Virus record (IMG/VR): IMGVR_UViG_3300020463_000061
Coordinates: 1 to 34,682 of that record
Length of the DNA: 34,682 nt
DNA from: a virus
Taxonomy: Duplodnaviria; Caudoviricetes
Strand: one strand, 5' to 3'
In this document: positions 14,073 to 23,460 of the stretch, in pieces
How positions within the stretch are numbered: position 1 is the first letter of the stretch
How the letters are laid out: the number at the start of each line of letters is the position of its first letter
Made by a program: the position numbers and the translations under genes
Notes under the pieces: generated by a model
What the model saw: only the letters and a program-made list of their open reading frames with translations
The model's database searches: none
What the model was told of the DNA's origin: nothing

Positions 14073-14240
14073 TGCTAACTTTTTGTGCTCTTATACTACT
14101 ACTACTCTTATTATCCTTTATTGTTTTTTATTAATACGAGGCTTTAAACTAAGCATTTTAAGCATTTAATAATTAAGATGTTGATAATCAGTTAGTTATA
14201 AAAAAAAAGTAAGCACAAACTAAGCACTAACTAAGCATTA
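14073..14240 (+). repeat. Origin-like element A: AT-rich tract plus five TAAGCA repeats
   Basis: TAAGCA at 14150, 14159, 14210, 14221, 14232; TTGATAATCAG at 14181; architecture repeated at 23312-23460. Confidence 0.6.
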
Positions 14241-14257
14241 GGTTAATGTAAGTGTAC

Positions 14258-14564: not shown

Positions 14565-14595
14565 GTAAAAATTTTGTTAGGTGTATATAGTATTT

Positions 14596-14820
14596 GGGTC
14601 CCCCCCACCCCACGGCGCCGGACCCTGCTGCGGAGGTCGGTTTTTTTTGTCGGGGGGGGTCGTCTTTTTTGCGCTGCGGTTCTGATTTTTTTGGCTTTTT
14701 GTGTGGTCCCTTTGCCCCTGTGACCTGTGACCTGTTGACCTCGTCCCCGTTCCCCGTTCCTTTGCCCCCGTTCCCGCCGGTAACCGCTACCGGTACCGGC
14801 TCCCGTCCCCCGTTATCCCT
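14596..14820. other. GC-rich non-coding island at the strand switch (candidate genome end / packaging region)
   Basis: Abrupt GC rise, homopolymer C/G/T tracts, CCTGTGA and CCCCGTT repeats, located between divergent gene blocks. Confidence 0.5.
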
Positions 14821-14834
14821 TACAAAGTGAGTTT

Positions 14835-14984: not shown

Positions 14985-15015
14985 TTTGGTAGTATGTAGA
15001 ATTAAACTATATTTG
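14985..15015 (+). promoter_or_regulatory. Early promoter TTTG-N19-TATATTTG
   Basis: Canonical Bacteroidota -33/-7 spacing; followed by 5' hairpin GTTGGACA-ACGAG-TGTTCAAC. Confidence 0.8.
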
Positions 15016-15727: not shown

Positions 15728-16768
15728 ATGAGAAATTTATCTAACACCGGTATAAAATTTGAAACTTTGGGGGACACCTCAAGACGTGGTCAAATTGTCG
15801 GCTACCACTGTAAGCCAAATCCGGTTGACCGCTCGAAAGCGGAACGAATAGACATCAACGGGTTAAAAGCCGTGGACCGTCAGAACGTCAAAATTGACGG
15901 GGACGAATACGAAAGCCGTTTCAAAATCGGTATGGAGTTCGAAAAGAACCGTTTACACCGTGGCGCCGTTGAAGAATACCCGTTGTTCTGTGGGTTCGAG
16001 AAAGACAGTTCTTGCGGGTTTACTCAAAGTCAGGGCGGTTATGAAGCGGTTACCCATATACTACCGCTTGTCGGTCCTAGTATGTGGCGAACAAAGGTTT
16101 TTAATATGTTTTACGAAGCACGTAAAATTATTGATGATAATTACAGTCCGTCAAACAGTCGTTGCGGTGGTCACATTACCTTATCTGTTGACGGTATGAG
16201 CGGCACGGAGTTAATGAGCAAAGTAAGAAAATTTGCTCCCGTTATCCTCTCAATATTCCGACACCGTTTGAACAACGGCTACTGTATGGGAAATCCTCAA
16301 ATGCTTGACAGTGAAAGGGACGGGGTCAATTCAAGAAATTACAACGGCTCCCGAAAATACGTGGTTTGTAAAAATACGGGGTTCGGTATCGAATTTCGTT
16401 TGCCGTCACGTTTTACATCTGTGAAACAAACCATAAGACGGTACGAAATTATGTACCACCTCTTAGACTTTGCGGTAAACCAACCCAATGCGACATTGCA
16501 CAAATTCGGTAACACGTTGAAACCGATTTTAATTTCTATGTACGACGGGGACATTGACAAAGTGGATGATGTTTTGGAGTTGGCAAAACATTTTGCGAAG
16601 TTTATGAAAACGGGCAAAGTCAATATGCACACCGCTCCGTGGTTAGAGGGTTGGTGGTCACGACGTAACCGTAATTTTGGAAGTTTTAAACACTGCTACC
16701 AACGAAACTTTAGACCGACGAGCGAGACGGTATCCGAGTGGCTAGATACCAACGGGTACGACCGTTAA
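15728..16768 (+). CDS. Putative amidoligase (COOH-NH2 ligase, glutamine synthetase-like fold)
   Basis: FKIGMEFEK, EKDSSC, GYEAVTH, RCGGHITLS, GIEFRLP motifs typical of the phage putative amidoligase family. Confidence 0.75.
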   Translation: MRNLSNTGIKFETLGDTSRRGQIVGYHCKPNPVDRSKAERIDINGLKAVDRQNVKIDGDEYESRFKIGMEFEKNRLHRGAVEEYPLFCGFEKDSSCGFTQSQGGYEAVTHILPLVGPSMWRTKVFNMFYEARKIIDDNYSPSNSRCGGHITLSVDGMSGTELMSKVRKFAPVILSIFRHRLNNGYCMGNPQMLDSERDGVNSRNYNGSRKYVVCKNTGFGIEFRLPSRFTSVKQTIRRYEIMYHLLDFAVNQPNATLHKFGNTLKPILISMYDGDIDKVDDVLELAKHFAKFMKTGKVNMHTAPWLEGWWSRRNRNFGSFKHCYQRNFRPTSETVSEWLDTNGYDR

Positions 16769-16773
16769 CAAAA

Positions 16774-16800
16774 AGACCTTAGCACGTCTCTAAACTGCTA
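16774..16800 (+). ncRNA. Compact H-type pseudoknot abutting hammerhead 1
   Basis: AGAC(16774-77)/GUCU(16786-89) crossed by UAGCA(16780-84)/UGCUA(16796-800). Confidence 0.5.
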
Positions 16801-16849
16801 CCGTCGGCGGATGAATGTCCGCCCTGAAGAGTTCAAAAGAACGAAACGG
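16801..16849 (+). ncRNA. Type III hammerhead ribozyme 1 (cleavage after GUC, C16805)
   Basis: CCGUC | GGCGGAU-GAAU-GUCCGCC | CUGAAGA | GUUC-AAAA-GAAC | GAAA | CGG: complete canonical core. Confidence 0.92.
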
Positions 16850-16874
16850 AAACTTTAATTTAATAATAATAAAA

Positions 16875-17096
16875 ATGAAAACTTTAAACATCATTCAAAA
16901 CACACTTTTATCAATCATCACACTGTTTGTAATTTCTACCTCTATGCGTTTGCTATGGCATATCATAACAACCGAGGGTCCCGGGCTTACAATCGGTTCA
17001 ATTAGTTTTGGCTTAATTATGGGGTCGTTCTTTGCGTTCCTATATTATGCGGTCATCACTTTGGTGGTTAACCTATGGAAAGAAACAATAGCATAG
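16875..17096 (+). CDS. 73-aa two-TM membrane protein
   Basis: MKTLNIIQNTLLSIITLFVISTSMRLLW...FGLIMGSFFAFLYYAVITLVVNLWKETIA; lies wholly between hammerheads 1 and 2. Confidence 0.7.
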   Translation: MKTLNIIQNTLLSIITLFVISTSMRLLWHIITTEGPGLTIGSISFGLIMGSFFAFLYYAVITLVVNLWKETIA

Positions 17097-17113
17097 GCAG
17101 AGTCTAAGGGGTT

Positions 17114-17129
17114 GTGTCTTTAAAGACAC
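17114..17129. repeat. Perfect palindrome GTGTCTTTAAAGACAC, extended by GGGG/CCCC (17108-17135)
   Basis: Hairpin ends at the base before hammerhead 2. Confidence 0.95.
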
Positions 17130-17135
17130 CGCCCC

Positions 17136-17184
17136 CCGTAACGGGATGCGTGTCCCGTCTGATGATACCAAAAGGTTGAAACGG
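17136..17184 (+). ncRNA. Type III hammerhead ribozyme 2 (cleavage after GUA, A17140)
   Basis: CCGUA | ACGGGAU-GCGU-GUCCCGU | CUGAUGA | U-ACC-AAAA-GGU-U | GAAA | CGG. Confidence 0.85.
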
Positions 17185-17203
17185 AAACTTTAAATTTAAT
17201 ACA

Positions 17204-17407
17204 ATGATAAAATATCCGAGTATCTATGAAATAGTAGGACCGTGGTCCAATGAAGAAACCACACAATGTGTTATTGAAAAAATACACACCGAGAGTTATG
17301 AAACCAACAAAGGTTACATCAACAAGAATTATTGTTTTTGTAATGCAGCCACCGCAAAAGTTGGCGACGAGATAAAAGTAAAGAAAAGATTTTTGCAAAA
17401 CTTTTAA
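17204..17407 (+). CDS. Hypothetical 67-aa early protein
   Basis: ATG 20 nt after hammerhead 2 in an A/T-rich leader. Confidence 0.65.
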   Translation: MIKYPSIYEIVGPWSNEETTQCVIEKIHTESYETNKGYINKNYCFCNAATAKVGDEIKVKKRFLQNF

Positions 17408-17408
17408 T

Positions 17409-17582
17409 ATGGAAGCGCTAAAGTCTTATACAATTTACTACAAAGGAAAGCCCGTCTCAAGAGAGGCGGGTTATACCAAGTACCACGCCCTAGACAAAGC
17501 GTATACAAATTTGTCTCAAAAGTACAAAGGCATCGAGAGAAAAAACCTAGACACCCAAAAAAATAAGTTTGGTTATGTCTAA
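17409..17582 (+). CDS. Hypothetical 57-aa protein (not in ORF track)
   Basis: MEALKSYTIYYKGKPVSREAGYTKYHALDKAYTNLSQKYKGIERKNLDTQKNKFGYV. Confidence 0.55.
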   Translation: MEALKSYTIYYKGKPVSREAGYTKYHALDKAYTNLSQKYKGIERKNLDTQKNKFGYV

Positions 17583-17599
17583 ATTTTGTCGTATCTTTG
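17568..17599 (+). promoter_or_regulatory. Early promoter TTTG-N20-TATCTTTG
   Basis: Canonical Bacteroidota elements upstream of the GATase gene. Confidence 0.75.
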
Positions 17600-17619
17600 T
17601 TTAATGTTAATCGAGTTCT

Positions 17620-17635
17620 GTGTCTTTAAAGACAC
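17620..17635. repeat. Perfect palindrome GTGTCTTTAAAGACAC
   Basis: Between promoter and ATG (operator-like position). Confidence 0.95.
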
Positions 17636-17654
17636 CGCTCACAAATTTAATTTT

Positions 17655-18743
17655 ATGTGTATAATTATAATCAAACAGAAAGGCAAAGTTGTGCCTAGAG
17701 AAATCCTCAAAACATCTTCAAGAATCAATCCTCACGGGTTGGGCATCGTTTGGCTCGACACATTCGAGACCACGTACCACAAGTCAAAAGAGTTCAAAGT
17801 ATTGGACAACGACAGACCTTACATCGCTCACTTTAGATACGCAACAGTTGGGAAAGTTTGCAGAGCAAACACACACCCGTTTGTATGTGGACATAACAAA
17901 GACGAGTTGTTTATGATGAACGGTACGGTTCACGGTTACGGTAATAAGAATATGACAGACACCGAGGACCTAGCAATAAAGTTGGGCAGAACACCACGTC
18001 ACACGTGGAAACAATCACTTGCCAAGTTCGATGCACGGTTCGTTGCAATCAACACACGCACACGGTCGTTTCAAATCTTTAACAAGCACCTCTACACATT
18101 GAGAGACGGGGTTTGGTATTCAAAGACCAACGTTCTACAAGACAACCTAATGGCAGTCTATGGAACATTGCGAAAGGGTAACGGTAATTATTACCGTTAC
18201 TTGCGTAATGCAAAGCACATCGGAACCGGCAAGACCAAATACAAATACCCTATGATAAGCAACGGTATACCGTATGTCATACCCGAAAAGGGAAAGGGTC
18301 ACAACGTAGTTGTTGACGTGTTCAAAGTCAGTGAAACCACGTTGCAGAAGGTGGACGGTTTGGAAGGTCATCCGAAGTGGTACAAGCGGAGACAGATACT
18401 CGTTGAGGTTAACGGCAAGGAGTACCCGTGTTGGTTGTATTTCAACGACGGAGCAAGAACGCAGTGGAACGGGTCAAACCACATTGCTGACTTTAACAAC
18501 AGACCAAAGCCAAAATACACCTATCACACATATCACGCACCAACAAAGGACGTGTACAAATTTGAAGATGCAGCACCCGTGTGTACTCAAATAGATATGT
18601 ATAATGAGTTTGACCGCAGCAAAGAAAAACCAATTTGCATTGACTGTTATCACGACCTAGAGTTTGACGGGTTTGCTAACTATCATTGCAATGGTTGTGA
18701 CGGTTGGTTCACGGAAGAAGAAGTGTTACGTTTCCAAGATTAA
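17655..18743 (+). CDS. Class II glutamine amidotransferase fused to gamma-glutamylcyclotransferase and a C-terminal Zn ribbon
   Basis: True start MCIII (N-terminal Cys nucleophile); NPHGLG, AHFRYATVG, NTHPF, MNG, TDTE; then AVYGTLRKG.GN...VDGLEGHP.WY.R; CxxC...CxxC tail. Confidence 0.85.
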   Translation: MCIIIIKQKGKVVPREILKTSSRINPHGLGIVWLDTFETTYHKSKEFKVLDNDRPYIAHFRYATVGKVCRANTHPFVCGHNKDELFMMNGTVHGYGNKNMTDTEDLAIKLGRTPRHTWKQSLAKFDARFVAINTRTRSFQIFNKHLYTLRDGVWYSKTNVLQDNLMAVYGTLRKGNGNYYRYLRNAKHIGTGKTKYKYPMISNGIPYVIPEKGKGHNVVVDVFKVSETTLQKVDGLEGHPKWYKRRQILVEVNGKEYPCWLYFNDGARTQWNGSNHIADFNNRPKPKYTYHTYHAPTKDVYKFEDAAPVCTQIDMYNEFDRSKEKPICIDCYHDLEFDGFANYHCNGCDGWFTEEEVLRFQD

Positions 18744-18756
18744 CCAAAGTAGGCTC

Positions 18757-18772
18757 GTGTCTTTAAAGACAC
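18757..18772. repeat. Perfect palindrome GTGTCTTTAAAGACAC, extended hairpin 18749-18779
   Basis: Hairpin base overlaps stem III of hammerhead 3. Confidence 0.95.
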
Positions 18773-18776
18773 GGGC

Positions 18777-18829
18777 TACCGTTCAGGAATGTGTATTCCT
18801 GCTGATGAAGTCGAAAGACAGAAACGGTA
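18777..18829 (+). ncRNA. Type III hammerhead ribozyme 3 (cleavage after GUU, U18783)
   Basis: UACCGUU | CAGGAAU-GUGU-AUUCCUG | CUGAUGA | A-GUC-GAAA-GAC-A | GAAA | CGGUA. Confidence 0.85.
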
Positions 18830-18847: not shown

Positions 18848-18982
18848 ATGAAACATAAAAGACAAGAACTGATAAACGAAATAGAAATTCTAAAACAACA
18901 CTTAATTGATATTGATGATGTAGATACAAACCCAAACGCAACGGAAGTATTAAATGATGTTATTAACGAACTAAAAAAATAA
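18848..18982 (+). CDS. Hypothetical 44-aa protein (not in ORF track)
   Basis: MKHKRQELINEIEILKQHLIDIDDVDTNPNATEVLNDVINELKK, directly after hammerhead 3. Confidence 0.6.
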   Translation: MKHKRQELINEIEILKQHLIDIDDVDTNPNATEVLNDVINELKK

Positions 18983-23311: not shown

Positions 23312-23460
23312 TGCTGACTTTTGTCCGCTACAATCTCTTAATTATATTTATTATTTATTATTTTATTTTTTAATACAAGAGAAAAAAGTAAACAAAGTAA
23401 GCAACTCATTGAAAATCAGACAGAAAGAAAGCATAAAGTAAGCACAAGTAAAGCACAAAC
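23312..23460 (+). repeat. Origin-like element B upstream of the primase-helicase
   Basis: AT tract; TAAACA/TAAGCA at 23389, 23398; TTGAAAATCAG at 23409; WAAGCA at 23428, 23439, 23450. Confidence 0.65.

What the first reader, a model, noticed from the sequence alone, without database searches (positions are those of the whole stretch)
16774..18829. Each hammerhead is fused to an upstream structure: a reusable 'structure + ribozyme + AU-rich leader' cassette
Seen: HH1 begins the base after a pseudoknot (ends 16800). HH2 begins the base after the extended palindrome hairpin (17108-17135). HH3 overlaps the base of the palindrome hairpin (18749-18779 versus stem III from 18777). HH1 and HH2 share the downstream leader GAAACGGAAACTTTAA(A)TTTAATA. 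Inference: after cleavage the upstream RNA keeps a 3' protective structure and the downstream RNA keeps stem I as a 5' cap. At HH3, hairpin and stem III compete for UAC (18777-18779), which could gate cleavage. This physically links the ribozymes to the genome-wide palindrome.
Basis: partly seen in the sequence, partly recalled or inferred. Interest (0 to 1): 0.7.

Follow-up and report, generated by a model that had tools for sequence, protein, structure and literature searches.

The report
End-capped hammerhead cassettes in phage operon
Three self-cutting RNA motifs (hammerhead ribozymes) sit at gene junctions of a marine phage, each directly behind a hairpin or small RNA knot, a layout repeated in many unrelated phages that likely cuts the long message into pieces with shielded ends.

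Summary
Three type III hammerheads (16801, 17136, 18779) each abut an upstream structure, and the close relative G001 keeps all three junctions. The layout is general: 143 of 197 non-redundant hammerheads of this family have a hairpin ending 0-3 nt before stem III, against 19 of 119 look-alike non-ribozyme matches; 6 more carry the same pseudoknot as HH1. A start codon follows a median 24 nt later. Best reading: self-processing sites that split the operon RNA and leave capped ends (predicted, untested). Two inferences weaken. Gating at HH3 is not favoured (stem III wins by 4 kcal/mol; 3-nt overlaps in 2 of 143). The palindrome is optional (53 of 197) and looks like a DNA site borrowed as the hairpin top. 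Hammerheads flanking phage genes are known (Perreault 2011); I did not find the fixed upstream cap in the papers searched. This scan has already noted the cassette and the pseudoknot on other DNA. Added here: a mapped in vivo RNA 3' end exactly at a LUZ24 hammerhead cut site, and a strong coupling between the cleavage base and pair 10.1-11.1.

The parts
15008..15015 (+). Predicted Bacteroidota-type promoter (-7 box, with -33 box upstream) driving the rightward operon
   Evidence: Consensus scan; consensus recalled; activity untested
15728..16768 (+). 346-aa gene upstream of cassette 1; its stop codon ends 5 nt before the pseudoknot
   Evidence: no Pfam or PHROG hit; amidoligase-like motifs are a recalled resemblance only
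16774..16800 (+). H-type pseudoknot (P1 4 bp, P2 5 bp, A-rich linker), member of an abundant post-stop-codon phage family
   Evidence: 9 hammerhead-linked copies: 98.8% of cells paired, 7 of 9 pairs with two-sided changes; family scan
16801..16849 (+). HH1, type III hammerhead, GUC, G10.1-C11.1, predicted cut 16805/16806
16875..17096 (+). 73-aa hydrophobic ORF between HH1 and HH2 (start 25 nt after HH1)
   Evidence: no family hit
17108..17135 (+). Hairpin topped by the 16-bp palindrome (17114-17129), no U tract
17136..17184 (+). HH2, type III hammerhead, GUA, U10.1-U11.1, predicted cut 17140/17141; next start codon at 17204
   Evidence: same variant and loop type as the PaP3 and phiIBB-PAA2 hammerheads
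17592..17635 (+). Predicted internal promoter (-7 box ends 17599) followed by a palindrome copy (17620-17635) with no ribozyme
17652..18743 (+). Class II glutamine amidotransferase / gamma-glutamyl cyclotransferase fusion gene upstream of cassette 3
   Evidence: Pfam PF06094 E 4e-21, PF13230 E 5e-5; PHROGs
18749..18779 (+). Hairpin topped by the palindrome (18757-18772); its base can extend over 18777-18779
18777..18829 (+). HH3, type III hammerhead, GUU, A10.1-A11.1, predicted cut 18783/18784; next start codon at 18848
   Evidence: kept in G001 with a compensatory stem III change

Best explanation
Each unit is a type III hammerhead sitting directly behind a hairpin or pseudoknot at a gene junction, and it likely acts as a self-contained processing site that cuts the phage's likely early operon RNA into pieces with protected ends. 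Shown: intact hammerhead cores; a structure that starts a few bases after the upstream stop codon and ends 0-3 nt before stem III; a start codon about 24 nt after the core. Inferred: (1) the ribozyme cuts soon after it is transcribed; (2) a type III cut leaves the upstream RNA only 5 nt of ribozyme, so the added hairpin or knot supplies the barrier to 3'-to-5' nucleases that stem III itself supplies in a type I hammerhead; (3) the downstream RNA starts with a 5'-OH and the stem I hairpin ahead of a short standard leader. The unit would work like a terminator whose U tract is replaced by a ribozyme, or like a host-independent RNase III site. The flush junction may also stack on and insulate the weak stem III. 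The palindrome is likely a DNA-level protein site reused as the hairpin top, with flanking pairs added at RNA level. The HH3 overlap more likely lets the hairpin close over the freed bases after the cut than gate it.
For: Abutting hairpin (<= -8 kcal/mol, gap <= 3 nt): 143 of 197 non-redundant hammerheads vs 19 of 119 unpaired pattern matches (which are more GC-rich) and 26 of 197 one window further upstream; Fisher p 2e-23; the search patterns did not include the hairpin. Hairpin sequences differ freely between lineages, and 6 cassettes use the pseudoknot instead. Stop codon 3-12 nt before the hairpin in 108 of 142 vs 265 of 2200 random positions. Start codon 15-35 nt downstream in 150 of 197. 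No U tract: at most 4 T in the 8 nt after the hairpin in 142 of 143. Flanks of ribozyme-linked palindromes: 57 G-U vs 8 A-C pairs, so the stem is kept on the transcribed strand; in whole genomes 21 vs 9, against 30 vs 30 at other copies. Predicted unpaired 3' tail after cutting <= 8 nt in 177 of 197. In 11 records the hammerheads lie on one strand each and are clustered. The pseudoknot family sits 5-9 nt after a stop codon in 73 of 140 copies and often precedes tRNAs. Pseudomonas phage LUZ24: the mapped RNA 3' end T004 (2480) falls exactly after the GUC of a type I hammerhead (PMC10914365 Table S4). Perreault 2011 showed cleavage of tandem prophage hammerheads in vitro and in E. coli.
Against: No RNA data for this phage and no cleavage or stability assay. 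30 of 197 cassettes have no upstream structure by my criteria, 10 have it further away and 8 have only a weak one. The upstream fold of the phiIBB-PAA2 cassette is no better than shuffles (z -0.5). The LUZ24 end belongs to a type I hammerhead, not to this cassette, and the library needed a 3'-OH, so it may be a healed or trimmed end. HH3 has GUU with A10.1-A11.1, for which I found no activity test. Comparative data cannot separate end protection from a folding role. The loci are capped samples from CCG/CGG and CUG/CAG stem III patterns, and related phages remain after de-duplication by shared flanks.
Confidence: 0.62

Rival explanations
1. The upstream structure mainly serves the ribozyme: it stacks on the weak 4-bp stem III or keeps upstream RNA from misfolding it; end protection is secondary.
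For: Gap is 0-1 nt in 116 of the 151 cassettes with a strong hairpin, as coaxial stacking would need. Modelled stem III probability 0.19 native vs 0.16 hairpin deleted (p 0.03) and 0.12 hairpin shuffled (p 0.001), n 143.
Against: The modelled effect is small. The same pseudoknot and palindrome hairpins occur after stop codons with no ribozyme, which points to an mRNA-end role. A short gap also fits a minimal 3' tail.
Confidence: 0.17
2. Regulated cleavage: the hairpin base or the upstream coding RNA competes with stem III (first reader's HH3 gate, or a gate coupled to translation of the upstream gene).
For: The HH3 overlap is real, includes the outer core pair (C18779), and is kept in G001. 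With 50-70 nt of naked upstream RNA the model loses stem III (P 0.01-0.03); masking the coding part restores it (1.0). Across 143 cassettes: 0.51 hairpin only, 0.17 naked upstream, 0.49 masked.
Against: Locally stem III wins by about 4 kcal/mol (-30.3 vs -26.3) with P 0.97; with 100 nt upstream P is 0.54. Overlap is 0 nt in 91, 1 in 36, 2 in 14 and 3 in 2 of 143. The model lacks the loop I-loop II tertiary contact and co-transcriptional folding. The alternative helices differ between G000 and G001.
Confidence: 0.11
3. The palindrome is an operator or roadblock site placed on purpose in the hairpin, so that a bound protein turns the junction into a conditional stop and the ribozyme acts only on read-through RNA.
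For: 23 of 28 hammerheads in 8 genomes have the lineage palindrome within 45 nt upstream; G006 and G007 changed the word both genome-wide and at ribozymes. One copy lies just downstream of a predicted promoter (17620).
Against: Only 53 of 197 cassettes carry this palindrome; G008-G010 have cassettes and no copy of it. No binding protein was identified. Most spacious junctions of this region carry the palindrome with or without a ribozyme.
Confidence: 0.06
4. Pieces between two hammerheads are re-joined into circular RNAs (for example the 335-nt HH1-HH2 piece), because the freed ends rebuild a complete hammerhead.
For: In the window both pieces would rebuild a Watson-Crick stem III; 11 of 23 adjacent pairs in 10 records do.
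Against: 6 of 23 pairs are mismatched and 6 wobble; one record has a single hammerhead. Perreault 2011 did not detect spliced or circular products for other tandem arrays.
Confidence: 0.04

Closest known systems
Clustered hammerheads flanking genes in prophages and phages (Perreault et al. 2011, PMC3088659; sections 6, 8 and first part of 11 read, passages, term searches in supplements)
   Same: Several hammerheads at gene junctions, variable neighbouring genes, proposed processing of long phage transcripts; U10.1-U11.1 variant; a type III hammerhead at the PaP3 genome end was among the constructs.
   Different: No fixed upstream hairpin or pseudoknot in the text read ('hairpin' occurs twice in the main text and never in the supplements held as text; figures not visible). 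No coupling of base 17 to pair 10.1-11.1 mentioned.
Type III hammerhead, Rfam RF00008
   Same: Core, three stems, open stem III, U-starting loop I and A-rich loop II.
   Different: Very fixed geometry (6-bp stem I, 6-nt loop, 12-nt stem II unit, 4-bp stem III); window copies fall below the gathering score.
Bruynoghevirus (PaP3, PaP4, phiIBB-PAA2, LUZ24) leader processing sites
   Same: PaP3 and phiIBB-PAA2 carry a near-identical GUA / U-U hammerhead just before the first gene.
   Different: Their upstream fold is weak. LUZ24 lacks this ribozyme and has a long imperfect hairpin with a mapped 3' end (998) in the same slot; that it is an RNase III site is my inference.
RNase III sites of the T7 early transcript (recalled, not checked here)
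   Same: Cuts a polycistronic early RNA at gene junctions and leaves structured ends.
   Different: Needs a host enzyme and leaves different end chemistry; here the cut is self-catalysed.
RiboJ-type synthetic insulators (recalled, not checked here)
   Same: A hammerhead gives the downstream gene a standard 5' end.
   Different: Engineered; the added hairpin stays with the downstream RNA, whereas here it stays with the upstream RNA.

Membership tests
Type III hammerhead ribozyme | Core CUGAnGA, GAAA and UH cleavage site | tested here: met
   All three copies
Type III hammerhead ribozyme | Stems I and II closed by loops, stem III open, with covariation | tested here: met
   stems differ freely among 153 copies while staying paired
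Type III hammerhead ribozyme | G10.1-C11.1 pair | tested here: inconclusive
   HH1 has it; HH2 has U-U, a published variant; HH3 has A-A, seen in 7 of 197 family members but no activity test found
Type III hammerhead ribozyme | Rfam RF00008 gathering score | tested here: not met
   HH1 40.6 vs 48.5 bits, E 8e-7; HH2 and HH3 not listed; one family member in L339 scores 50.5
Type III hammerhead ribozyme | Self-cleavage at the UH site | not testable with these tools
   No RNA run holds the stretch
Intrinsic terminator | GC-rich hairpin followed by a U tract | tested here: not met
   At most 4 T in the next 8 nt in 142 of 143; other palindrome hairpins in relatives do have U tracts
STAXI motif (RF01728), considered for the pseudoknot | Two or three tandem pseudoknots matching the model | tested here: not met
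   No match in G000; seed sequences differ; single copy here
Coremin / xrRNA-C (lead from earlier scan notes) | Blocks a 5'-to-3' exoribonuclease and protects RNA downstream | not tested
   No comparison made; placement 0-1 nt before a cut that removes the downstream RNA argues against that role here
Pseudoknot-stabilised hammerheads of Perreault 2011 | Pseudoknot joins loop I to loop II or a tail | tested here: not met
   The pseudoknot is self-contained and lies wholly upstream

The most novel reading that the evidence does not exclude
Phages of several host groups use a modular, interchangeable mRNA punctuation mark: a 3'-end cap (hairpin, the lineage's operator palindrome, or an uncatalogued pseudoknot) fused to a cutter (hammerhead, RNase III-type stem or tRNA). 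In the hammerhead version the cleavage base and pair 10.1-11.1 co-vary (C with G-C, A with U-U, U with A-A), which would reveal an unrecognised active-site coupling that sets cleavage rate site by site.
Probability: 0.25. Interest if true: 0.72.

Novelty: new variant of a known kind. Interest (0 to 1): 0.45.

Why it matters
The role of ribozymes in phage genomes is described as open (PMC6765202, passages read). A fixed cap + ribozyme + leader layout gives a specific, testable function, and close versions sit in cultured Pseudomonas phages where the test is routine. The pseudoknot-plus-hammerhead junctions limit what a very common uncatalogued phage pseudoknot can do, since it stays on the upstream piece. 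The cassette is also a ready-made part for splitting operons without host nucleases.

Tried and rejected
No RNA holder listed for the stretch, so no reads were laid; this says nothing on expression. Rfam gave nothing for the pseudoknot; STAXI rejected. A protein search with the 346-aa gene found one related locus, and exact scans for HH3 and the HH1 pseudoknot found only G001 plus three pseudoknots without hammerheads, so HH3's overlap rests on one relative. The ribosome-mask run for G001 covered part of the hairpin and was not used. The first pseudoknot alignment had one mis-set row and the first pair count a shifted helix; both were redone. A text search of the ONT-cappable-seq supplement with four core words found no mapped end at a type III hammerhead. 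Circularisation is disfavoured. Ten paper searches found no description of the upstream cap or of the base 17 coupling; subscription papers and author manuscripts (for example the 2014 and 2015 twister/pistol papers, and 2010-2012 hammerhead surveys in RNA and JBC) are not in the library, and supplementary figures could not be seen, so absence from print is not established. No palindrome-binding protein was identified.

Full report
Setting. The window is a whole IMG/VR virus record, 59% complete, with terminase, tail spike and GroEL genes on one strand and a rightward operon that starts near a predicted Bacteroidota-type promoter at about 15015 (consensus recalled) and runs through small genes into replication-type genes. 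'Early' is my inference from that layout.

Observation. A pairing descriptor finds exactly three type III hammerheads, at 16801, 17136 and 18779, all on the + strand; 100 shuffles gave at most one. Rfam lists HH1 as Hammerhead_3 below the gathering score and misses the other two. The shared leader is partly ribozyme core and partly an ordinary AU-rich translation start.

Conservation. The close relative G001 keeps all three junctions, with compensatory changes in pseudoknot P1 and in HH3 stem III. A hairpin of at most -8 kcal/mol ends within 3 nt of stem III in 143 of 197, against 19 of 119 and 26 of 197 in two controls. An earlier subset of 91 gave the same picture. Of the rest, 6 have the pseudoknot, 8 a weak hairpin, 10 a hairpin further off and 30 nothing. 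A stop codon lies 3-12 nt before the hairpin in 108 of 142 (random 265 of 2200), and a start codon 15-35 nt after the core in 150 of 197. Leaders follow the host type: 0 of 52 palindrome cassettes have a Shine-Dalgarno-like word, against 58 of 124 others.

Pseudoknot. Nine hammerhead-linked copies pair in 98.8% of cells with two-sided changes at 7 of 9 pairs (I chose the copies because they fit, so this supports the fold, not its frequency). A scan for the commonest variant estimated about 6200 stretches in IMG/VR. In 140 distinct copies, 99 have a full P1, 73 lie 5-9 nt after a stop codon, and what follows is a gene, a tRNA, a promoter-like word or, in about 2, a hammerhead. It has no Rfam match and is not STAXI. 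Because a type III cut separates it from all downstream RNA, here it can only serve the upstream piece.

Palindrome. It occurs 12 times in the window and 7-19 times in six relatives, often inside genes in either orientation, at matching positions in GroEL, and mostly without a longer stem. That pattern fits a DNA-level protein site (inference). At ribozymes it is extended by flanking pairs rich in G-U over A-C (57 vs 8), the mark of an RNA stem. It also tops terminator-like hairpins. In eight genomes 23 of 28 hammerheads have it just upstream, and G007 uses its own different palindrome in both roles. Overall 53 of 197 cassettes use it, so the hairpin is the constant and the palindrome a local ingredient.

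Gating. At HH3 the fold in which stem III holds 18777-18779 is 4 kcal/mol better than the one in which the hairpin does. After the cut the hairpin is predicted to close over these bases and leave a 4-nt tail. Three-base overlaps occur in 2 of 143 cassettes. Against my reading: with 50-70 nt of untranslated upstream RNA the model loses stem III, and this sensitivity is general, so a translation-coupled gate is not excluded, though the model omits the tertiary contact.

Cultured phages. HH2 matches a hammerhead in front of gene 1 of Bruynoghevirus phages; the upstream fold there is no better than shuffles. LUZ24 lacks it and has a long imperfect hairpin with a mapped 3' end at 998 in the same slot; its end at 1941 follows a GC hairpin and lies in a second long stem; and its end at 2480 is exactly the cut site of a type I hammerhead (PMC10914365: passages, sections 8 and 18, and supplement rows read). 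The paper lists these as terminators and does not use the word ribozyme in its main text. Perreault 2011 had listed type I hammerheads in LUZ24 and PaP3.

Side result. Base 17 and pair 10.1-11.1 are coupled: C with G-C 97, with U-U 2; A with U-U 61, with G-C 21; U with A-A 6, U-U 4, G-C 3, 4 others (Fisher p 2e-27, not corrected for relatedness). Different states coexist within genomes and differ between copies of the same site. One search found no paper on it.

Literature. PMC3088659 already proposes that tandem hammerheads process phage transcripts and shows cleavage. PMC6765202 calls the purpose unresolved. Passages only: PMC5737381, PMC10085705, PMC7761336, PMC2864571 (plus supplement hits), bioRxiv 2024.05.16.594327. 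T7 RNase III sites and RiboJ are recalled. Earlier notes of this scan report the same cassette and the same pseudoknot on other genomes; I read them after forming my view and they are not independent support.

Verdict. Real, conserved and general; a new variant of a known kind. End-capped processing is the best reading (0.62) and is untested. Interest 0.45.

Noticed in passing
197 non-redundant hammerheads incl. window 16801, 17136, 18779: Cleavage base 17 co-varies with pair 10.1-11.1 (C/G-C, A/U-U, U/A-A); the window's three copies show one state each.
   Followed up: partly
L177 (LUZ24) 2410-2485: Published 'terminator' T004 at 2480 is exactly the cut site of a type I hammerhead; likely in vivo ribozyme cleavage.
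   Followed up: partly
L177 (LUZ24) 985-1035 and 1911-1985: Mapped 3' ends at 998 and 1941 lie in long imperfect stems that look like RNase III substrates; the first occupies the slot of the PAA2/PaP3 hammerhead, the second follows a GC hairpin.
   Followed up: partly
window 16774-16800; L556-L688: Very abundant uncatalogued pseudoknot after stop codons (about 6200 stretches estimated), often before tRNAs or genes.
   Followed up: partly
window 2224, 13351, 14835, 15694, 17620, 20032, 21895, 22836, 25994, 27228: Ten palindrome copies without ribozyme; coding copies sit at matching positions in relatives (GroEL about 650 nt in); binding protein unknown.
   Followed up: partly
G007 and G006: G007 has a different 14-bp genome-wide palindrome (8 copies) that also tops its hammerhead hairpins; G006 has a loosened version with 19 copies.
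   Followed up: partly
L175 1090-1140: In phiIBB-PAA2 the annotated start codon of gene 1 overlaps the 3' strand of stem III.
   Followed up: no
window 14590-14830: GC-rich low-complexity stretch between the divergent operons, with short repeats at 14206-14242 that recur at 23424-23460 before the primase-like gene.
   Followed up: no
window 15728-18743: Unclassified 346-aa gene and amidotransferase/cyclotransferase fusion recall phage peptide-modifying clusters (recalled resemblance).
   Followed up: no
L313, L334, L358, L359, L362: Family hammerheads also occur on contigs of Saccharibacteria and Nomurabacteria genome bins, some without an upstream hairpin.
   Followed up: no
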